54,661 bases of DNA from the IMG/VR virus record IMGVR_UViG_3300025030_000021, positions 1 to 54,661 of that record; one strand, given 5' to 3'. This DNA is from a virus (taxonomy: Duplodnaviria > Caudoviricetes). The position numbers and the translations under genes were made by a program. The number at the start of each line of letters is the position of its first letter. The first letter of the stretch is position 1. Of this stretch, positions 16,341-46,783 are shown piece after piece. The notes under the pieces are model-generated. The model searched no databases, was not told where the DNA came from, and saw only the letters and a program-made list of their open reading frames with translations.

Positions 16341-17351
16341 ATGAAAGTAAACATGAAGCCACACGCCACCCTCCCCGGTTGGTACACTCTCGACTACCGG
16401 CCCGATGGATCGGGAGGGAAGAGATATAGGGACCACGTCAAGGGGTTTGACGAGGCGCAAGCGGCCAAAGCGGAGCTGGAGTGTAGGTCAATAGACCCCA
16501 CGGATACTGCTACCTCCCCCCGCCTTAGCGACATAGTGGGCGAATATCTAGCGTGGGTAAAGCGCAACCAGGCCGACGCCACTTACGCGGGGAAGCTGTG
16601 CCGGTTTACAAAGCACATCATCCCCGCCCTTGGCGATAAACGAGCGGCTGACATATCGCAGCGGGTGCTCGATGGATACGGGGCGCACATGGCGCGTGGG
16701 AGCTTCCGACAGGACTTGGTAGATATACAGGCGATGCTCGGATGGATGGTAAAGCGCAAATATGCCGAGCCGCTGAAATTCAAGCCGGAACTGCCAACGT
16801 ATCGGGCGAAGATTAAGCACCTCCCCTGCGCTAGCGATATATTGAAATTCATCGCCGCGCTCCGGTTTCCGATGCACCAAGCCGTCTGCCAGCTAATGCT
16901 CTACACCGGCCTGCGGTGGAATGAGGCGCGGAGTCTAAGGTGGGAGGATTACCGAGGATCGGAGATATTGGCACGGGTGACGAAGACGGATAATCCCGAG
17001 ATAATTGCCATCCCCGCCGCTTGTGCCGAGTGGTTTAAATCGCATAAACAGCCGAGAGGGTACATATTCAGCGCGGACAAGGGCAAGACTGCGCTTTGTA
17101 ACTTAGGTCGTCCGCTGAGGACTGCATTCGTCGTGTCAGGGGTATATATGACCGCTCACATGTTCCGCCACGCCAGCGCTACGTTCCTCTATGAGTTGAC
17201 CGGCGACATTTACGCGGTTCAGCACCATCTGCGGCATAGCAAGGTGACCACTAGCCAGATATATACGCGGTACTCGGCAGTTCAGCGGCGAGGGTCGGTT
17301 GACATATTGGCGGGGATGCTGGACGAGTTGGGAAGGGGGCAAAAACCCTAA
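16341..17351 (+). CDS. int: Tyrosine recombinase / phage integrase
   Basis: Catalytic set GLRWNE (R), HMFRH (HxxR), LRHS and TSQIY (Y); N-terminal arm-binding-like strand. Confidence 0.93.
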   Translation: MKVNMKPHATLPGWYTLDYRPDGSGGKRYRDHVKGFDEAQAAKAELECRSIDPTDTATSPRLSDIVGEYLAWVKRNQADATYAGKLCRFTKHIIPALGDKRAADISQRVLDGYGAHMARGSFRQDLVDIQAMLGWMVKRKYAEPLKFKPELPTYRAKIKHLPCASDILKFIAALRFPMHQAVCQLMLYTGLRWNEARSLRWEDYRGSEILARVTKTDNPEIIAIPAACAEWFKSHKQPRGYIFSADKGKTALCNLGRPLRTAFVVSGVYMTAHMFRHASATFLYELTGDIYAVQHHLRHSKVTTSQIYTRYSAVQRRGSVDILAGMLDELGRGQKP

Positions 17352-18385: not shown

Positions 18386-18748
18386 ATGAAAAGGCTAATT
18401 ATCGCAATGGCGCTACTTATCGGCGGGTGTGGCAGCGGTGGCGGCGAAGCTCAACCGGCAGCGGATACCGGCAAGCTCGTTGAATCCACGCAAGAGGCGG
18501 GGTTTTTCCTCTCATCTGTCGCGGCGGATGGGGCGCACTACAAGACGGTCACGACCAAGGGGGAGTTTGTCACGCTGACGCGCATAGGCGGGATATCGAC
18601 GCGGGGCGATAAGCGGGCGGTAGTTTGGACCATATCCAATGATAAGACCGGCGAGATATCGTCGCAGTGGGTGCGCGTGTATACCACTAATACTAATTAC
18701 GATGTGGTGAGTGCGAGGATAATTAACATCGTTTCGCTGCTACCATAG
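18386..18748 (+). CDS. Lipoprotein (superinfection-exclusion candidate)
   Basis: MKRLIIAMALLIGG-C lipobox signal followed by a Gly linker. Confidence 0.75.
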   Translation: MKRLIIAMALLIGGCGSGGGEAQPAADTGKLVESTQEAGFFLSSVAADGAHYKTVTTKGEFVTLTRIGGISTRGDKRAVVWTISNDKTGEISSQWVRVYTTNTNYDVVSARIINIVSLLP

Positions 18749-40210: not shown

Positions 40211-41752
40211 CTAGGCGAACGCGCGGGCGAAGGCGGCGGTTTGGCGTTCCTTCAAGTCAGAGATAGAATACACGATACCCTTATTGTCCGCGAAGGTAGT
40301 AACCGGCGCTCCCTCCCAAAACAACTTGGCCCGCGTAGCGCCGAGCATGTCCCTTACCTCCTCCTTCGATTGCCCCCTCATCCACTCATCCATAGTGATA
40401 TCTGCGCGAACGGGGCCATTTTGGGACGCACGCAGCGATGGCGGGAGTTCGTCAAGGTCGATACCGAGTTCCTTCCACGTAGCGAGATTAGGGGAGGCGA
40501 AACTGCGGCAGTTGGGGTGCCTTGGCGGTATCGGACCCTCGCCTATCTTATGGACAGAACCCGAAAGGGATCGGCATGTAACGCTCGTTTTGCCGTCAAG
40601 CGTAGAGAGAAACGTCCACGACTTAACAATGTCCTTATTCTGCGCGTAGGTCGCCTGTATCGCTTGATTTGAGATATGGTTGACGCTGGTTCTCACCAGA
40701 GTTTCACACTCCCTCCGCACTATCGCAAATATCCCGGCCTCGTAATCCCTCGCGCTGCCGGTCAACCTCCGCACGATGGCTGCGATGCCTTCGCCCTCCG
40801 TGACGCCCAATCGTATCTGTTGCGCCACTCTCAACGCCGCTTTCGCGTCCATCTGCTCCCATAATTCACCAAGGAGTGCGCCCTGTATCGGGGCGTTGTC
40901 GACGAGTATTTTTAGCTGATCGATGTTGGGGGTGATAACGTCTAGCGCCACATTCAGCAAACTAGGCGGCACACTGTCAACGAGTGGGGTGAACCCTCCT
41001 TCCGGTATAGAGACGATGAACTCGTAATAACCGCTGTCTCTCACGTAAAGCGCCACAATGTCATCGACGGGGATTTTGTAGGCCATTGCTACGCGGTCCT
41101 TATCGGTGAACTGTTTTGCTAAGTCCCTATCCCCAAAATAGGCGGTTAATGCCTTAGCGTTACGCTCTTTAATTGGCGCGTCGGCCCGGTATAGTACAAC
41201 CGAATCCCCATATTGAGCCCTGATAGACTCACGCACATTTTCCCATCCCTGTGCTATCTCTGCGGTCGTTTTATCTCCGCTGGAAACCAACCTGTCGAGC
41301 GCCCGCAACTGTCCGGGCCTTACGCCCTGTGCATCCTCGTCTAACTCAAATCGCACGCGGGACGCCTTGGAAGACTTTAGCCCAAGGTCAAGGAGTTCAT
41401 CTGTCACCTTTAATTCTTCCGCGTCTAGCCCTAAAGACCGGCGCAAGCCCGCTGCCGCACCTTGGGCCTCATGCGCGGCGAAGTCGGCTAAAGGAGCCTG
41501 TATCGCTTCGTAGACCACCTTACCACCATCCGCCACCATCGCCGTGAGCGCGTCCACTAGAGATTGCAACCGCGCCGAAGTCCACGCGCCTTCCTTCACT
41601 TTCATGTGGCGCTTGATGAGTTGGGCAACGAGGTCTTCGTTGGCGTCATTGAGTAGACTGACGATATCGCGCACCAGCTTATTGGCAAACCGGCTGTTGT
41701 CAATCTGCGCCCGAATTGCGAGGGACATCAATTTATCATTCACATTTGCCAT
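40211..41752 (-). CDS. MuF / SPP1 gp7-like minor head protein with an internal ART-like insertion
   Basis: TLVRT..NH, STLD.KTS..CRSL and PP.HPNCRS motifs; about 155-aa extra domain at residues 110-265. Confidence 0.88.
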   Translation of the reverse strand: MANVNDKLMSLAIRAQIDNSRFANKLVRDIVSLLNDANEDLVAQLIKRHMKVKEGAWTSARLQSLVDALTAMVADGGKVVYEAIQAPLADFAAHEAQGAAAGLRRSLGLDAEELKVTDELLDLGLKSSKASRVRFELDEDAQGVRPGQLRALDRLVSSGDKTTAEIAQGWENVRESIRAQYGDSVVLYRADAPIKERNAKALTAYFGDRDLAKQFTDKDRVAMAYKIPVDDIVALYVRDSGYYEFIVSIPEGGFTPLVDSVPPSLLNVALDVITPNIDQLKILVDNAPIQGALLGELWEQMDAKAALRVAQQIRLGVTEGEGIAAIVRRLTGSARDYEAGIFAIVRRECETLVRTSVNHISNQAIQATYAQNKDIVKSWTFLSTLDGKTSVTCRSLSGSVHKIGEGPIPPRHPNCRSFASPNLATWKELGIDLDELPPSLRASQNGPVRADITMDEWMRGQSKEEVRDMLGATRAKLFWEGAPVTTFADNKGIVYSISDLKERQTAAFARAFA

Positions 41753-41886
41753 TCGCCCACCTTTGCATCACAGTTGCAGCACACGATAGCGCCGTCATCG
41801 CGGAGAAAGAACTTCGTCCCACCGCAAGAGTGTATCCACCATCTCGGCTCCGGCACCTTGCGGCGTATGTCGATGATATCGGCCAT
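41740..41886 (-). CDS. Small Zn-ribbon protein (48 aa; not in ORF track)
   Basis: MADIIDIRRK...HSCG..KF......IVCCNC; overlaps the MuF start. Confidence 0.5.
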   Translation of the reverse strand: MADIIDIRRKVPEPRWWIHSCGGTKFFLRDDGAIVCCNCDAKVGEWQM

Positions 41887-41918
41887 TGGCCTATTATAGC
41901 ATTAATTCGCGGTAATTG

Positions 41919-43736
41919 CTACTTTCGGCGCTGCTTCAGAAACACCAGATCCTGCACCGTCTCCACATTGCTGCCGTCCGTACTCTGCACCCGCACCGTC
42001 TGCCGCGCGAGGTTCTTCATCACGTCGAACGGGCTGGAGTATGTAGCGGTCGGCGTGCATCCCGCACCGAAGCAGTATTTCGTGGTCCCTGCGGTAGTAG
42101 TGAGGGAGAGTTGCTGCGTGGTGAGGTAGCGACCGGGTGCTTTGGACGGCGTAGTCGTGGGGGCGACGCCTGCAGCGTAAATACCTGCCGCCGTCATCGG
42201 AGTGCCTAGATAACTCCAGATATAATCCGTAAGCGGTGAGTCTGTAGTACCACTTAATGCGGCAAAGCCCCGATCACCACTGTTAGACGCAGCATACGCC
42301 TTCATTTTGGCCGACCACGCAGTCTCATTTGCAAGCGGCCAAAGTGGGGTAGCCCCTGTGTCATTCCATCCTGCCGCGCCGTGGATATTCCCCGTCCCAC
42401 CTATCTGGTACATGATGTTTGGCCCGATAGTCCCTGTTTCTACGCGTGGGAGGTGCCTGACAATCGAAGTCATAGGATTTGTGGTAGTGTCCAACCCTGT
42501 GGATGTACACCCAACACCAGAAAGGCACGTATTGGATGTGTTGTTGTATGCGATGGTGTCAGTAATAACCCGACTCATAGTTTTATCTGTGTCGCCAAAG
42601 GCTGACACAGTGTTGCCAGTGAAAATTGAATTGCTGATATTGTATTGGTTGTTGAGCCGGGTGGCTGTTAATGCCACGCCATACGTGGTTGACCCTACGA
42701 GCATGTTTGAGACATTCCACACGTTTTTATTACCAGATACATTATAGGCTGAGTCACCTATGGCTAGATTGTAGGGGTAGAACCCGTTTTCATTTCCCCA
42801 CAATACGCTATTGGCCCAAACGTTCGGCTTGGTGTCGTCCATTACCCCTTTTTCATTACTGAAGCCCCACCTGCCGGGGTTATTCAGCGCGATATTTCCG
42901 TTGAAGATGTGTGACCATTCGCCTGCCGAGCTACTCCCTCCAAGGGCAAATGCGATACACTCCACGCTCGGTGAGTTACATCCCAGCCCGCCTGCGCCAT
43001 TGTCAACCAGCGAATCAATCACAATGCAGTTCTGCATCGAATTGTTGTTCGAATTATAAAATCGAAGACTTGCGCTCATGTAACCTGTAGGTGAAGCATC
43101 CAGTCTAACAACTACCCTTCGGAATATGGAGTGGTCCGTGCCTCCAAGGATTGATCCCGTGTAAAACCCGTAACGACCCTTACCCCAGACCCAACAATCT
43201 TCAACCAGATTGTAAGACCCCTCCGTGATTGAGGCAATTGCCGTTTCAGTGTTGGACGCTACAGGCATTCCGTCTTCAAAGCCACAATTTGACACCCAGT
43301 TATAACTACCTCCAAGGTAGAATAGCCCGCTCAACCCGTGCTTGAAATGAATCCCGTCGACATGTAGATAGTTCACCGTGTTGGTGTCATAAACTTGGAA
43401 TGCTGCCCGCAGATACTCAGCATCCACCACAACCCCGCCGACGCTCTCAGCCTGTATCGTGGTGTAGTTTCCCGCAGTTCCGCTGGGGAGGGACTGTAAA
43501 GTCACCCCGTTCCAGCCGATGATATTATTAGCCCCCGTGTATGTGCCGTTTTTGATGACGAGCGTGTCTCCTGAAGCGAGCAGTGACGCGCCCGAGCGGA
43601 TGTATTTCTTGGGGGTGCTTATCGCCCCGTTGCCAGCATCATCAATCACACTGCCGTCAACGTAATAGGTCGCAGCGTGAGCGCCGCCAGAAGCACAGCC
43701 CAGAAGTATAATTAAGAGAATTAGTCGCAGTTTCAT
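41919..43736 (-). CDS. Secreted right-handed beta-helix protein (polysaccharide-lyase-like) with C-terminal chitobiase/Fn3-associated domain
   Basis: Signal peptide MKLRLILLIILLGCASGGAHA then ATYYVD...G....P; GDTLVIKNGTY; C-terminal PTTTPS..PG.Y...Q.LSLT. Confidence 0.75.
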   Translation of the reverse strand: MKLRLILLIILLGCASGGAHAATYYVDGSVIDDAGNGAISTPKKYIRSGASLLASGDTLVIKNGTYTGANNIIGWNGVTLQSLPSGTAGNYTTIQAESVGGVVVDAEYLRAAFQVYDTNTVNYLHVDGIHFKHGLSGLFYLGGSYNWVSNCGFEDGMPVASNTETAIASITEGSYNLVEDCWVWGKGRYGFYTGSILGGTDHSIFRRVVVRLDASPTGYMSASLRFYNSNNNSMQNCIVIDSLVDNGAGGLGCNSPSVECIAFALGGSSSAGEWSHIFNGNIALNNPGRWGFSNEKGVMDDTKPNVWANSVLWGNENGFYPYNLAIGDSAYNVSGNKNVWNVSNMLVGSTTYGVALTATRLNNQYNISNSIFTGNTVSAFGDTDKTMSRVITDTIAYNNTSNTCLSGVGCTSTGLDTTTNPMTSIVRHLPRVETGTIGPNIMYQIGGTGNIHGAAGWNDTGATPLWPLANETAWSAKMKAYAASNSGDRGFAALSGTTDSPLTDYIWSYLGTPMTAAGIYAAGVAPTTTPSKAPGRYLTTQQLSLTTTAGTTKYCFGAGCTPTATYSSPFDVMKNLARQTVRVQSTDGSNVETVQDLVFLKQRRK

Positions 43737-43753
43737 AACATCCCTCACATCCC

Positions 43754-45034
43754 TCATGGCGTTGTGTAGATCTTCATGTTGAGGGTTTTCGCCCCGATGT
43801 TTTCATAGTGCGTACCCGAGTTTTGGTACGAGTGCAGTGATTGCCATCCCGCTATCCCCGCGCCGTAGCGTAGAGTGGCGTAATTCGCAGCGTCTGCTGC
43901 ACCGTCTGCGGGCTGCACCACAATTACGGCATTCTGGGGGAAATTCACAGCCGCCGGAAACGTAAATGGAATGTATGCAAATGTGCCGGTAATTGTCGAA
44001 CCAGAAACAGCGTCAGATGTGCCTAACAGAGTACCTAGCGAGGAGTTGGCTGTCGCCGCAGAATACGCTTTGGCTACGTAAGATTTACTACTTATATCCC
44101 CAGCTCCGACCTTCAATTCTATGTCAATCGCACAAATGCTGTAGGTTGTCACGTCGGCGTAGAAGACACCCACCTTGCTTCTGTTTGCTGAATCGCCCAC
44201 GGATGTGTCTATGGTCCCGCCCCCAGTGTAAGTTACGGTCGGAGTTGAGTTGCACGCTACCGCAGGTGTTACTCCCGTCCCGCTCAAAGCCACTACTGTA
44301 GGCGTCCCCGCCGCATTATGCGGGAATTCAAGTGATGCAGTATATGGTCCGCCCGCAGTCTCCCCCGGAGTAAACATCACGCTCTCTAGGCAGTCGGCCG
44401 AAGGGTTTACGGTCGCCGCGTTGCAGGCGTCCGAGGAGATGCTGAACTTGGCCGCGTCGGTGCCGGCTATCGACGGCGCGCCGACAACCAGATCAGCCGT
44501 GCCTGTATTGGTCAGCGTCGCCGTGAGCGTGCTCGTCGTCCCCGTGTCCACGTTACCGTAGTCAAGCGTTGACGGGCTGGCTGAGGCAACTGGTGCGCCT
44601 CCTGTCCCCGTACCACTCAGTGCCACGCTCACCCGTGCGATATTCGGCGCGGAATAGCTGGCGAACCCTGTAAATGCACCATTGCCTGCCGGCGTGAATC
44701 TCACCTTGGCGGTGCGTGTGCGGGCGGCTGAGATATTGCCGAAAGTAGTCGAGCTGTAGAGACTGAACCCCCCCCCTGTCACCTTGGTGGTCACGTCCTC
44801 CGCCGTATCGTTGCCGGAGTTCGTGACGGTGAACGTGGTAGTCGCAGAGGTGCCTACGTCCTTGCTGCCGAAGTTGTGGGTGGGCGTGGACCACCCGAGA
44901 GACTGGACGAGATCGACCCACTGGGCGCGGGCCTTTCCTCCGAACCACGTACCGAAGCCGAACCCAAAGCCAAAGCCCCAACTCGGAGCAGCGACCAGTA
45001 GCACCAGCGCGGCGGCTAGCAATATTCGCTTCAT
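43754..45034 (-). CDS. Putative head spike fibre with signal peptide, (FG)n motif and two ASH/choice-of-anchor-D-like Ig domains
   Basis: MKRILLAAALVLLVAAPSWG-FGFGFGFG; two FG.V.VG......T.TN.G...V.FTP...V.LSGTG repeats; AAGGGG RBS. Confidence 0.7.
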   Translation of the reverse strand: MKRILLAAALVLLVAAPSWGFGFGFGFGTWFGGKARAQWVDLVQSLGWSTPTHNFGSKDVGTSATTTFTVTNSGNDTAEDVTTKVTGGGFSLYSSTTFGNISAARTRTAKVRFTPAGNGAFTGFASYSAPNIARVSVALSGTGTGGAPVASASPSTLDYGNVDTGTTSTLTATLTNTGTADLVVGAPSIAGTDAAKFSISSDACNAATVNPSADCLESVMFTPGETAGGPYTASLEFPHNAAGTPTVVALSGTGVTPAVACNSTPTVTYTGGGTIDTSVGDSANRSKVGVFYADVTTYSICAIDIELKVGAGDISSKSYVAKAYSAATANSSLGTLLGTSDAVSGSTITGTFAYIPFTFPAAVNFPQNAVIVVQPADGAADAANYATLRYGAGIAGWQSLHSYQNSGTHYENIGAKTLNMKIYTTP

Positions 45035-45044
45035 TGCGGCCCCC

Positions 45045-45305
45045 TTAATACAGAGCCACGATGTCTGTTGCCGTGGTCCCTGTCGCCAGCACGCGCTTGA
45101 CCATGTATGCCACATCTCCGCCCACGTCCTTTAGCACTACCGAAGTGGCGTCATCGGCCATTATCACCGCGATATCTCCAGCAACGCCGACGTGCAGGGC
45201 GCGTGACACTTCGGGGAGGTCAACGGTATCGGAAAGGGTCACTGCTGCTGCGCGGCGGGCGGGTGCGTTGGGGCCAAGTACTCTGTCTCTGTAGGGGTCA
45301 CTCAT
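45045..45305 (-). CDS. Head spike base protein (RcGTA Rcc01079-like)
   Basis: PA..AAAVT.SD..DL....RAL.VG.AGD..V.M.......V.RVLATGTTAT.IVAL family pattern. Confidence 0.85.
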   Translation of the reverse strand: MSDPYRDRVLGPNAPARRAAAVTLSDTVDLPEVSRALHVGVAGDIAVIMADDATSVVLKDVGGDVAYMVKRVLATGTTATDIVALY

Positions 45306-46741
45306 TATATATCTCCTTGTGCGTTGCGGTTGGTTAGTGTGCCGAGGCTTGGGCCTTCTGCGGCGAGTCGTTCACGGTTAAGTTCGATATCGAAGTCGCT
45401 CGGCGTCTCGCCTCTCCACCCCATAATTTCAAAGTACGACTCTTCGGAGAGCTTGCCGAGGGCGAGCGCCTTGTCGAGTGATGTCAAACCTGCATCCGAG
45501 CCTTTCGCAGCCCCAAAGTCGGTATTAATCGCAACGCTGCCCGCTTTCTTCGTATCAAGCCCCAGCATCTCCGCGAAGTATTGCAGCAGCAGTTCCAGCG
45601 CGTCAGAGTTGCATTCTGCTACCGCCTTCAAGCCAGCACACCCTTCCTCACTGTCGATAGCCGCAGCGGTCGCGGTCACGTTACCAGCACGCTCGACGCG
45701 AAGGGACGCGCCTGCGCTCTCGATGCGGGCTTCGATGTCCTTGAGGTAATCGCTGGCAATCTTGGCACCGGAACCGGATGGTGAGAGCCAGTAGAATTTC
45801 CCATCAGGCGCGACACATCGGGCTATCTTATTCGGGCCGACATCGCCAGACCAGTCCTCTTTAGTGACACCGGTTGCTGCCAGCATCTCAAAGCACGACA
45901 TGGTGACGGTGTTCTGCAACTCTGAAGTGACGCGCCAGTGGGCGAGGTTCAGCTCTGCGGTGGCCTGGAACGCTGGCTCACCTATCATGAAGCCCGTACG
46001 GTTGGTATAGAGCGCGATGAGGTAAATCTGTTTCATGGCGGTGATGTCTTCTTCGATCATCACCCACTCTTTGCCGTTCGCGGTCTCTTGCTCCTCCCAT
46101 ATCTGGTAGATAATGGAGCCATCCGGCCACCGCTCCAGCACGCGGATACGCTCTTGCTCGCGGTATCCCCACTTGCCATCAGGCACCTGAGTACATTCCT
46201 TGATGCGGATACGGGTAATCGTCCGCTTGCCGCCGATCATCTCGGAAACAACGGGGTCCAGCAGGCAGCACGCTTTGATGTGGACGGCATAGGGGCGAAG
46301 GTTGGCGGCGGTGCGGTCGGCTGCGGTGACGATCTTCTTGTCTGGCTTCTGCTCGTCGGCAAGGATGTATGTCACTCCGTCTGCCCACGCTGAGCGCGTG
46401 GCGTCCATAGCGAACGCGTTGAAGTCTCGCCCCTGGAGGTCGAAATCTTCCATCAGTGCGGCGATTTGGGGGGGAACGTCAGTGAGGGTGATCTGCTTGG
46501 CGAAGAGCTTACCGTTGGCTTTGTCGATAGCCTGCGCGGTGAAGGGGGTTAGCACGTTGCCAGCGAGACGCAGGTTATAATTCCCTCCTCCAATTTCCCC
46601 GGGGTGCTCCGGTAGCCACTTGCGGCCAGCGCGTTTCATGGCAGGAGTCCCGCCGAGGAGGTCGCGGGTTAAGGCTCGCCTCTCTTCCAACTCTATGTAT
46701 ACAGGACTCGGCGTGCTGACATCTATCTTCTGTTCTGCCAT
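45305..46741 (-). CDS. Portal protein (DUF4055-like)
   Basis: RDLLGGT.AMK.AG..WLP...E....Y..RL; follows the terminase. Confidence 0.9.
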   Translation of the reverse strand: MAEQKIDVSTPSPVYIELEERRALTRDLLGGTPAMKRAGRKWLPEHPGEIGGGNYNLRLAGNVLTPFTAQAIDKANGKLFAKQITLTDVPPQIAALMEDFDLQGRDFNAFAMDATRSAWADGVTYILADEQKPDKKIVTAADRTAANLRPYAVHIKACCLLDPVVSEMIGGKRTITRIRIKECTQVPDGKWGYREQERIRVLERWPDGSIIYQIWEEQETANGKEWVMIEEDITAMKQIYLIALYTNRTGFMIGEPAFQATAELNLAHWRVTSELQNTVTMSCFEMLAATGVTKEDWSGDVGPNKIARCVAPDGKFYWLSPSGSGAKIASDYLKDIEARIESAGASLRVERAGNVTATAAAIDSEEGCAGLKAVAECNSDALELLLQYFAEMLGLDTKKAGSVAINTDFGAAKGSDAGLTSLDKALALGKLSEESYFEIMGWRGETPSDFDIELNRERLAAEGPSLGTLTNRNAQGDI

Positions 46742-46783
46742 ATTGGGCGCTCCTGCCATCGCGGCGGTGCTGGTTGGATTGTG

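What the first reader, a model, noticed from the sequence alone, without database searches (positions are those of the whole stretch)
43754..45305. Head-spike fibre whose capsid-docking (F-G)n motif sits behind a Sec signal peptide: possible export-then-decorate capsid system
Seen: 45045..45305 has the pattern of the RcGTA Rcc01079 head-spike base. The next gene (start 45034) reads MKRILLAAALVLLVAAPSWG|FGFGFGFGTWFGG, followed by two ASH/choice-of-anchor-D-like Ig domains (one with a Cys pair, DACN...ADCL) and a beta-sandwich tip. Established (recalled, not searched): the RcGTA fibre Rcc01080 docks into the pentameric base through hydrophobic-Gly dipeptide repeats (like IALGLGLGL) at its extreme N-terminus. 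Inference: here the equivalent repeat (44951..44974) becomes N-terminal only after signal peptidase cleavage. The fibre would then be exported, folded and disulfide-bonded in the periplasm, and attach to cytoplasmically assembled capsids only at or after lysis. Virion proteins normally lack signal peptides.
Basis: partly seen in the sequence, partly recalled or inferred. Interest (0 to 1): 0.88.

Follow-up and report, generated by a model that had tools for sequence, protein, structure and literature searches.

The report
Phage head fibre behind a signal peptide
A phage encodes a capsid-spike socket protein followed by a fibre whose docking peptide lies just behind an export signal, so part of the virus particle may be finished outside the cytoplasm, which is not known for tailed phages.

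Summary
Gene 45045-45305 (-) is a bona fide Rcc01079-family spike base (NCBIfam equivalog 79.6 bits, cut-off 28). Ten bases downstream, gene 43754-45034 (-) starts with a classical n-h-c signal peptide. Directly behind it lies W19-G-F-G-F-G-F-G-F27, five aromatic residues spaced like the RcGTA fibre's five-point star.

New comparative evidence:
- In 111 other base loci the partner's motif was at an extreme N-terminus (40) or C-terminus (6), and never behind a signal peptide.
- The fibre belongs to a phage protein family in which 32 of 36 members have a signal-peptide-like N-terminus.
- In 13 of 36 members a small-x-small cleavage site is directly followed by a 5-of-5 alternating hydrophobic run, against 3 of 123 controls.
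- Two members lack the signal and start at the motif itself.

Cleavage is therefore more likely at S18|W19 than at G20|F21.

Complication: in five related phage contigs this fibre and the next gene, an exported enzyme, travel as a cassette with a different small upstream gene. Those contigs have no base gene. The window's base has no signal peptide.

Best reading (about 0.5): an exported fibre joins capsid-bound base pentamers at or after lysis. This is unproven, because no trained predictor, pentamer model or proteomics was available.

The parts
45045..45305 (-). Spike base protein, 86 aa, Rcc01079 family. It has no signal peptide. Its start overlaps the portal stop.
   Evidence: NCBIfam NF048002 79.6 bits, cut-off 28. 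PDB 6tb9 at 4.6e-5 and 8cjz at 4e-5. phrog_12296. Not flagged by the signal-peptide heuristic.
43754..45034 (-). Fibre gene (426 aa plus stop). Layout: signal peptide, aromatic-Gly motif, conserved Ig module, second Ig domain, variable tip.
   Evidence: Family alignment.
44981..45034 (-). Predicted Sec-type signal peptide, M1-S18. The n-region is MKR, the h-region is 11-13 Leu/Ala/Val residues and the c-region is A-P-S.
   Evidence: Sequence. Helix 2-14 in the AF2 model. 32 of 36 family members have a signal-peptide-like N-terminus. No trained predictor was available.
44951..44980 (-). Docking-type motif W19-G28, (aromatic-Gly)x5. It would be the new N-terminus after cleavage at S18|W19.
   Evidence: The nine residues from W19 are identical in P0005 and P0006 although their signal peptides differ.
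44600..44920 (-). Conserved N-terminal Ig module, residues 39-145, shared by the family.
   Evidence: 63-77% identical to L090, L091, L092 and L006-9/L093-94. Pfam ASH 49-122. pLDDT about 80.
44273..44590 (-). Second Ig-like (choice-of-anchor D) domain, residues 149-254, with the Cys204/Cys215 pair.
43757..44251 (-). Variable tip, residues 262-426, with Cys261 and Cys301. The fold is not established.
   Evidence: Shared only with P0005. AF2 pLDDT below 50. Atlas look-alikes are mostly viral proteins, which is a lead only.
41919..43757 (-). Next gene, 612 aa. It has a lipoprotein-type signal (probable start M8 at 43736, lipobox Cys codon at 43695-43697). The mature protein begins with a YYVDGS stretch, which I recall as typical of beta-helix enzymes. 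The last 82 residues (41922-42170) are conserved in the cassette.
   Evidence: The C-terminal 82 aa are 52-65% identical in L090-94/L006-9. Pfam finds nothing in the window protein. CHB_HEX_C_1 is seen only weakly in the L091 homologue, E 0.0034, below the cut-off.
45305..46759 (-). Portal protein (context: head module).
   Evidence: phrog_145 at 1.1e-91. Pfam DUF4055.
40211..41752 (-). Mu F-like head morphogenesis protein (context).
   Evidence: PF04233. phrog_241 at 3.2e-90.

Best explanation
The window is a complete temperate siphovirus-like phage. Its head module encodes a cytoplasmic Rcc01079-type spike base, which by homology sits as a pentamer on capsid vertices. The next gene encodes a fibre with a Sec signal peptide.

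Proposed mechanism:
1. Signal peptidase most likely cuts at S18|W19.
2. This creates a new N-terminus, W-G-F-G-F-G-F-G-F. It has the same length and spacing as the I-A-L-G-L-G-L-G-L star that anchors one RcGTA fibre in five hydrophobic pockets of the base pentamer.
3. The fibre would fold in the periplasm, where it could form its Cys204/215 and Cys261/301 pairs.
4. It would meet base-decorated capsids only when the inner membrane is breached by the holin, or at lysis, and would then plug into the vertices.
5. The next gene, an exported enzyme with a lipoprotein-type signal, may ride on the fibre or act beside it. The conserved C-terminal module of the enzyme is co-inherited with the conserved Ig module of the fibre.

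Shown: the gene order, the family memberships, the signal-peptide features, and conservation of the junction between signal peptide and motif.
Inferred: export, the cleavage site, binding to the base, and the timing of assembly.
For: 1. The base is a true family member.

2. The docking rule is published. The spike is a pentamer of base plus a single fibre, and residues 2-10 form a star (PMC7296036, passages).

3. In ZHS, Pben1 and RcapNL the gene after the base starts directly with the motif.

4. Survey of 111 distinct other base loci:
- 40 have a downstream gene with two or more hydrophobic-[GAS] dipeptides starting at residue 8 or earlier.
- 6 have a neighbouring gene with the motif at the extreme C-terminus.
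- 0 have the motif behind a signal peptide.
So the motif is normally terminal.

5. The window has only one such motif, it sits 10 nt downstream of the base gene, and no chance run appeared in 200 simulations.

6. Family evidence:
- 32 of 36 representatives have a signal-peptide-like N-terminus.
- 13 of 36 have a small-x-small site directly followed by 5 of 5 alternating hydrophobic residues, and 22 of 36 have 4 or more of 5. The controls with signal-peptide-like N-termini give 3 of 123 and 12 of 123.
- P0206 and P0244 lack the signal and begin at the motif.
- P0005 keeps the nine motif residues unchanged behind a divergent signal peptide.

7. The nearest base relative (L010, 62% identity) is also paired with an all-Phe-Gly motif, there at the C-terminus.

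8. The window has no homologue of the small upstream gene that precedes the fibre in the other phages. The base occupies exactly that position.

9. No in-frame start codon lies near the motif.
Against: 1. The base has no signal peptide. In five related loci the small upstream gene and the fibre agree in state: both have a signal in L090, L091, L092 and L094, and both lack one in L155. The window pair is therefore discordant.

2. The fibre-enzyme cassette occurs in phages with no base gene. These are G001 (94% complete) and G005 (75% complete). They also have no MCP or portal related to the window's. The family does not in general need a base or this capsid.

3. Alternating aromatic N-termini occur in family members that have no base. 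The motif as such is therefore not proof of base docking.

4. No trained signal-peptide predictor was run, and no pentamer model or virion proteomics is available.

5. The genomic contexts of P0005 and P0006 could not be fetched.

6. Assembly after lysis has to work against dilution. Two literature searches listed no tailed-phage precedent (listings and abstracts only).
Confidence: 0.5

Rival explanations
1. Secreted accessory cassette. The fibre-like lectin and the enzyme form a self-contained exported module, mobile among phages. It would act on the host envelope polysaccharide during late infection, for example to aid release or destroy receptors. The aromatic-Gly stretch would serve that module and not the capsid. 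The base would be an independent vertex decoration without a fibre.
For: - The cassette is found with a different small exported upstream gene, and without a base, in L090, L091, L092 and L094/L008.
- Its position in the genome varies between these phages, and they do not share MCP or portal with the window.
- 70 of 111 base loci have no recognisable motif-bearing neighbour by my criterion. Bases without an adjacent fibre are therefore common.
- Choice-of-anchor D domains are typical of secreted bacterial proteins (names).
Against: - The window lacks the small upstream gene, so the conserved N-terminal motif would have no partner.
- The window's motif has glycine at every small position, as base partners elsewhere mostly do. 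Cassette relatives without a base have N, D, S or K there.
- The genes are 10 nt apart in the head module.
- The nearest base relative is also paired with an all-Phe-Gly motif.
Confidence: 0.22
2. Cytoplasmic assembly with an uncleaved or unused signal. The hydrophobic N-terminus is not exported late in infection, and the internal motif docks on the base inside the cell. The leader stays as an appendage or is removed by another protease.
For: - Both genes sit in one late operon, and the base is cytoplasmic.
- The motif can work at either chain end (C-terminal cases), so a free N-terminus may not be strictly needed.
Against: - In the survey the motif is always at a chain terminus: 46 terminal cases and 0 internal.
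- The family keeps canonical small-x-small sites exactly in front of the motif, which argues that cleavage matters.
- An exposed 13-residue Leu/Ala/Val helix on a virion would be unusual.
Confidence: 0.1
3. The alternating aromatic N-terminus is not a star. It is a donor strand or membrane-binding patch that pairs the fibre with another cassette protein or with the outer membrane. Its resemblance to the RcGTA motif would be convergent.
For: - The run is family-wide and occurs in members without a base.
- The fibre consists of Ig-like domains, and N-terminal donor strands complete Ig folds in chaperone-usher pili (recalled, not searched).
Against: - The intervening residues are G, N, D and S. 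By recall these favour turns rather than beta-strands.
- In the window they are all Gly.
- The gene lies directly next to a known star socket.
Confidence: 0.1
4. Annotation artefact: the true start lies downstream, and the 'signal peptide' is untranslated leader sequence.
For: GTG at codon 11 is a possible start.
Against: - ATG 45034 has AAGGGGG 5 nt upstream, whereas GTG (codon 11) has no purine-rich stretch before it.
- Starting at codon 11 would still leave eight residues before W19.
- Relatives conserve full n-h-c leaders.
Confidence: 0.03

Closest known systems
RcGTA head spike: base Rcc01079 plus fibre Rcc01080 (PDB 6TB9; PMC7296036, passages read)
   Same: - The base is the same family.
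- The fibre gene lies directly downstream.
- A nine-residue run has five hydrophobic residues at alternating positions separated by small residues.
   Different: - In RcGTA the run is residues 2-10 of the primary product. Here 18 signal-peptide residues precede it.
- The residues are aromatic (W/F) rather than I/L.
- The fibre body is unrelated: Ig-like choice-of-anchor D domains, with no tblastn match in 50,697 phage records.
Base-fibre pairs of phages RcapNL, Pben1 and vB_EpM_ZHS, and of about 40 further loci
   Same: A base gene is followed by a gene carrying the hydrophobic-Gly motif.
   Different: All of these start with the motif at residue 8 or earlier and have no leader. 0 of 111 loci have it behind a signal peptide.
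Three-gene cassette of exported proteins in phage contigs L090, L091, L092 and L094/L008: a small protein, an Ig fibre and an enzyme
   Same: - The fibre's Ig module is 63-77% identical and the enzyme's C-terminal module 52-65% identical.
- Both proteins carry signal peptides.
   Different: - There the upstream gene is an exported 117-131 aa protein unrelated to the base (hhalign probability 0.13%), and no base is present.
- The window has a base and no such gene.
Sec-dependent late phage proteins (signal-anchor-release endolysins, spanin lipoproteins) and filamentous-phage coat proteins
   Same: These are phage proteins made late and sent across the inner membrane by host Sec. Coat proteins of filamentous phages are exported before assembly (abstract of PMC4823517 in the listing; the rest recalled).
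   Different: They are lysis proteins, or parts of a virion that assembles at the membrane. They are not decorations of a capsid that is built in the cytoplasm.
Extracellular tail development of Acidianus two-tailed virus (recalled, not searched)
   Same: Part of virion morphogenesis takes place outside the cytoplasm.
   Different: It is an archaeal virus, no signal peptidase step is involved, and its proteins are unrelated.

Membership tests
Spike base protein, RCAP_Rcc01079 family (NCBIfam NF048002) | Whole-protein score above the curated cut-off | tested here: met
   79.6 bits against 28, E 1.5e-22, covering residues 3-86.
Spike base protein, RCAP_Rcc01079 family (NCBIfam NF048002) | Sequence relation to the solved base chains | tested here: met
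   6tb9 Rcc01079 at E 4.6e-5 and 8cjz at 4e-5.
Spike base protein, RCAP_Rcc01079 family (NCBIfam NF048002) | Pentamer seated on capsid pentons through its N-termini | not testable with these tools
   This would need cryo-EM or a pentamer model.
RcGTA-type head-spike fibre (Rcc01080-like anchoring) | Run of five hydrophobic residues at alternating positions separated by small residues | tested here: met
   W19, F21, F23, F25 and F27, with Gly between them.
RcGTA-type head-spike fibre (Rcc01080-like anchoring) | The run lies at the extreme terminus of the primary translation product | tested here: not met
   18 residues precede it. In other loci there are 40 N-terminal and 6 C-terminal cases. 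The feature would be met only after signal-peptide cleavage.
RcGTA-type head-spike fibre (Rcc01080-like anchoring) | The gene is adjacent to the base gene | tested here: met
   10-nt gap on the same strand.
RcGTA-type head-spike fibre (Rcc01080-like anchoring) | The N-terminal peptide binds the base pentamer | not testable with these tools
   No pentamer could be modelled. A binding assay or a structure is needed.
Sec (type I) signal peptide | Positive n-region, hydrophobic h-region of 7-15 residues, small residues at -3 and -1 | tested here: met
   MKR, then ILLAAALVLLVAA, then A16-P-S18|W or S18-W-G20|F. My heuristic flags it from ATG 45034. That heuristic is not a trained predictor.
Sec (type I) signal peptide | The leader is kept in homologues while its sequence drifts | tested here: met
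   32 of 36 family representatives are signal-peptide-like. The leaders of P0005 and the window differ at most positions, while the nine motif residues are identical.
Sec (type I) signal peptide | Export and cleavage demonstrated, or called by SignalP or a similar tool | not tested
Choice-of-anchor D / ASH Ig-like domain proteins | Domain score above the curated cut-off | tested here: met
   NF012200 69.1 bits against 45. PF15780 48 bits against 27.
Exported three-gene phage cassette (small protein, fibre, enzyme) | Conserved Ig module of the fibre and conserved C-terminal module of the enzyme | tested here: met
Exported three-gene phage cassette (small protein, fibre, enzyme) | Small exported protein encoded directly upstream | tested here: not met
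   No significant tblastn hit (best E 0.34) and no hmmsearch hit in the window. A base gene lies there instead.

The most novel reading that the evidence does not exclude
A lineage of temperate tailed phages finishes its capsid outside the cytoplasm. The head fibre, and perhaps the lipoprotein-type enzyme encoded after it, are exported by Sec and fold in the periplasm, where disulfides can form. Signal peptidase itself creates the five-point docking peptide. The fibre then plugs into capsid-bound base pentamers only once the holin or lysis joins the two compartments. More widely, a whole family of phage fibres would use a neo-N-terminus made by signal peptidase as its assembly key. In that case the small exported upstream protein of related phages would be a second, periplasmic type of socket.
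Probability: 0.4. Interest if true: 0.9.

Novelty: new variant of a known kind. Interest (0 to 1): 0.74.

Why it matters
Tailed-phage virions are taken to assemble entirely in the cytoplasm, and a signal peptide is normally used as an argument that a protein is not structural.

If this fibre is exported and still ends up on the capsid:
- It would add an assembly step in which a host protease creates the docking key.
- It would explain how disulfide-dependent lectin or Ig modules of secreted bacterial proteins can be recruited as phage decorations.
- It would change how phage genomes are annotated, since 'has a signal peptide' would no longer mean 'is a moron'.

It is directly testable with one lysogen or a recombinant base-fibre pair.

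The survey also extends the known RcGTA rule. The hydrophobic-Gly anchor can sit at either end of the partner protein.

Tried and rejected
Complex prediction. I ran the base (four copies, alignment A3) with fibre residues 19-60 (alignment A1). The result was 'no answer', ipSAE 0.15 and 0.04 against a mark of 0.32, and the controls were not run. I do not use this for or against binding. A pentamer could not be modelled.

Structure models.
- The AF2 model of the fibre has mean pLDDT 42.8, and only residues 45-145 are confident. The tip fold is left open.
- The AF2 model of the small upstream protein of L094 has pLDDT 57.2. A Foldseek search against PDB gave 0 matches at E of 0.001 or better among 520 at E of 10 or better, so it is unusable.

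Profile comparisons (hhalign).
- Small upstream protein against the base: probability 0.13%.
- L155 upstream protein against that family: probability 1.1%, E 0.051.
- L155 upstream protein against the base: probability 0.4%.
No relation is shown in any of the three.

Searches for further genomic contexts.
- Genome contigs searched with the fibre alignment: none.
- Viral contigs searched with P0006, P0005, P0159 and P0187: none.
- P0244 gave only a 23-residue C-terminal match.

Other checks.
- The promoter and terminator scan of 41500-45500 found nothing above shuffled expectation.
- An Atlas search with the tip found mostly viral look-alikes with no family name. I treat this as a lead only.
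- PDB sequence searches with the fibre and with RcapNL gp30 found nothing useful.
- I could not identify the virus behind PDB 8cjz. The PhiM1 paper (PMC11440229, passages) does not mention it.
- Literature searches for exported virion or capsid-decoration proteins (listings and abstracts only) showed no precedent. This is weak evidence of absence.
- Supplements of PMC7296036 (pocket residues, head-spike figures) were not seen.

Limits of my own scripts.
- The signal-peptide heuristic is crude. It flagged 9 of 237 six-frame ORFs and mis-extends the h-region into the FG run.
- The motif regex misses degenerate N-termini such as those of L053, L095 and L109-111, and includes doubtful ones (L051, L152). 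The count of 40 is therefore approximate.
- Four of the ten 'C-terminal' hits were the base's own C-terminus, and I dropped them.

How the 36 family members were chosen. They came from the 150 listed, plus P0022 and P0024. I kept proteins of 502 aa or fewer whose single match starts near their N-terminus. I dropped P0141, which is N-terminally truncated, and the long multi-repeat proteins.
Full report
WHAT IS THERE

The window is a complete viral record of 54,661 bp with direct terminal repeats. On the minus strand it encodes, in order:
- small and large terminase;
- portal (45305-46759);
- an 86-aa protein (45045-45305);
- a 426-aa protein (43754-45034);
- a 612-aa protein (41919-43757);
- a Mu F-like head protein (40211-41752).

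Further downstream lie the major head protein (phrog_283), head-tail connectors, a tape-measure-like protein and tailspike-like proteins. An endolysin and an integrase are also present. The phage is therefore temperate and siphovirus-like.

THE BASE

The 86-aa protein matches the NCBIfam equivalog 'spike base protein, RCAP_Rcc01079 family' at 79.6 bits against a cut-off of 28. It also matches the solved chains 6tb9 (Rcc01079, E 4.6e-5) and 8cjz ('Spike Base Protein', 4e-5). It has no leader. Its ATG overlaps the portal stop, and my heuristic finds no signal-peptide features in it.

According to the RcGTA structure paper, each head spike is a pentamer of Rcc01079 plus a single Rcc01080 subunit. 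Residues 2-10 of that fibre, I-A-L-G-L-G-L-G-L, form a five-point star in five hydrophobic pockets (PMC7296036, passages). PMC10218006 repeats this point (passages).

THE FIBRE

The fibre gene starts at ATG 45034. This is 10 nt after the base stop, with AAGGGGG 5 nt upstream.
- The product begins with MKR, a 13-residue Leu/Ala/Val stretch, then P-S.
- W-G-F-G-F-G-F-G-F-G follows.
- Counting W19, the run has five aromatic residues at alternating positions. That is the number needed for a five-fold socket.
- The other in-frame start codons are at codons 5 and 11, so translation cannot begin at the run.
- Two Ig-like (ASH / choice-of-anchor D) domains follow.
- There are four Cys, at 204, 215, 261 and 301.
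- The last 165 residues could not be modelled.

The run is not chance. It is the only strong one in all ORFs of the window, and none appeared in 200 simulated windows.

IS THE MOTIF NORMALLY TERMINAL?

I collected base homologues from three sources:
- phage records: 89 of 50,697 records matched, and four were inspected;
- viral contigs: 125 relatives, of which the best 80 were kept;
- species genomes: 60 relatives.

After collapsing identical base cores, 111 loci other than the window remained.
- In 40 loci a gene starting within -25 to +60 nt of the base stop has two or more hydrophobic-[GAS] dipeptides beginning at residue 8 or earlier.
- In 6 loci (L010, L011, L066, L083, L095, L096) a neighbouring gene ends with such a run at its very C-terminus.
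- In 0 loci is the run preceded by a signal-peptide-like leader.

These counts are approximate, for the reasons given under Tried and rejected. The pattern is nevertheless clear: the anchor is a chain end. The window's run is terminal only if the leader is removed.

IS THE LEADER REAL?

No trained predictor was available, so I used comparison. Homologues of the fibre share a conserved Ig module (residues 39-145) and have different C-terminal domains. An exhaustive search with residues 1-150 gave further representatives. I kept 36 family members, chosen as described under Tried and rejected.
- 32 of 36 have a signal-peptide-like N-terminus.
- A script picked, for each protein, the small-x-small site followed by the best alternating hydrophobic run. 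It found 5 of 5 alternating positions in 13 of 36 and 4 or more of 5 in 22 of 36.
- Other fetched proteins with signal-peptide-like N-termini gave 3 of 123 and 12 of 123.
- Typical junctions are A-Q-A|F-N-F-D-F-G-F-G-V, S-N-A|W-D-F-G-F-N-F-G and A-S-A|L-D-L-G-L-G-L.
- P0005 has a different leader but the identical nine residues W-G-F-G-F-G-F-G-F.
- P0206 and P0244 have no leader and begin M-F-F-S-F-G, that is, at the motif.

Two conclusions follow. The junction between leader and motif is under selection, and the motif is meant to be N-terminal. By homology the window's cleavage site is S18|W19 (A at -3, S at -1).

THE COMPLICATION

In five contigs the fibre homologue is followed by a homologue of the window's 612-aa protein. 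The two proteins share their last 82 residues at 52-65% identity, shown for L090-L094 and L006-9. In L155 the shared C-terminus was read by eye.

In those contigs the fibre is preceded not by a base but by a small protein of about 103-131 aa.
- In L090, L091, L092 and L094/L008 all three proteins have leaders.
- In L155 the small protein and the fibre both lack one.
- These small proteins show no significant similarity to the base.
- No base is found in G001 (94% complete) or G005 (75% complete), with the window as positive control.
- These phages share neither MCP nor portal with the window.

The fibre and enzyme are therefore a mobile pair, usually with their own small partner gene. The window has no such gene anywhere. 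A base lies in its place, and the base has no leader.

WEIGHING

The aromatic N-terminal key is a family trait and needs a partner. In the window the only candidate is the base.
- The base is a documented socket for exactly this kind of peptide.
- It lies 10 nt upstream.
- The window's key has Gly at every small position, as base partners elsewhere mostly do. Cassette relatives without a base use N, D, S or K there.
- The nearest base relative (L010, 62% identity) is likewise paired with an all-Phe-Gly run.

Against this stand the mismatch in compartment and the fact that the family can do without a base. I therefore put 'exported fibre that joins base-bearing capsids at holin triggering or lysis' at about 0.5. 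The rivals are:
- a free secreted cassette, about 0.22;
- cytoplasmic assembly with an unused leader, about 0.1;
- a non-star role of the peptide, about 0.1;
- a start-codon artefact, about 0.03.

A second hint that spike parts can be exported comes from L011/L012.
- The base ORF there carries an in-frame 36-residue leader ending A-V-A|Q, directly before the conserved base sequence.
- It is followed by a protein with a leader that ends R-M-G-M-G-L.
- However, a GTG at codon 37 could be the real start.

NOVELTY

The base is a new member of a known family. The pairing of a cytoplasmic base with a fibre whose anchor lies behind a conserved signal peptide is a new variant. I found it in none of the 111 other loci, and the literature listings showed nothing like it. 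The assembly route it implies would be categorically new for tailed phages, but it is not shown.

Noticed in passing
L010:2054-4084; L066:376-2463; L083:1900-2397; L011:2800-4812; L095:3258-4022; L096:3255-4022: Genes next to spike-base genes can carry the hydrophobic-Gly anchor at the extreme C-terminus. Examples are ...GFGFGFGL, ...LGVGIGIGV, ...ILALGIG, ...RMGMGL and ...YGIALG. The published RcGTA rule describes only an N-terminal anchor. L095 and L096 may have a run at both ends.
   Followed up: partly
L011:2384-2764 (same in L012): A base homologue (48% identity) lies in an ORF with an in-frame 36-residue leader: n-region, a 19-residue hydrophobic stretch, then A-V-A|Q. The leader ends directly before the conserved base sequence. 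The next gene also has a leader. A GTG at codon 37 could be the true start instead. It is the only such case among about 55 distinct viral base ORFs inspected.
   Followed up: partly
L148:3228-6221 (Erythrobacter colymbi contig): The gene overlapping the base stop encodes a protein of at least 998 aa. Its N-terminus looks like a twin-arginine (Tat) signal: T-R-R-S-F-M followed by a hydrophobic stretch. My heuristic did not flag it.
   Followed up: no
L155:3681-7367: This is a leaderless version of the cassette. A 103-aa protein without a signal precedes a fibre homologue that starts at the motif. The enzyme after it still appears to have a leader if read from the ATG just after the fibre stop. 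No base is found in this 75%-complete record.
   Followed up: partly
window 41922-42170 and homologues in L090-L094, L006-L009, L155: The enzymes of the cassette have different N-terminal domains but share an approximately 82-aa C-terminal module. It ends in a basic tail (K-Q-R-R-K or similar). Pfam CHB_HEX_C_1 is seen only weakly (E 0.0034, below the cut-off) in the L091 homologue.
   Followed up: partly
window 18386-18748 (+): A 120-aa ORF with a lipoprotein-type leader (lipobox L-I-G-G-C) lies close to the integrase (16341-17351). It has no PHROG or NCBIfam match. It may be a lysogeny-expressed surface protein.
   Followed up: no
L024:2908-4338 and L106:3286-3783: Other base loci are followed, at 146 nt and 57 nt, by unrelated proteins with leaders. 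One is a Thr-rich secreted protein and the other a 165-aa lipoprotein. Neither has a hydrophobic-Gly run.
   Followed up: no
L010:1849-2043: A 64-aa Cys/His-rich ORF sits between the base and the fibre gene in the closest relative of the window's portal-base pair.
   Followed up: no
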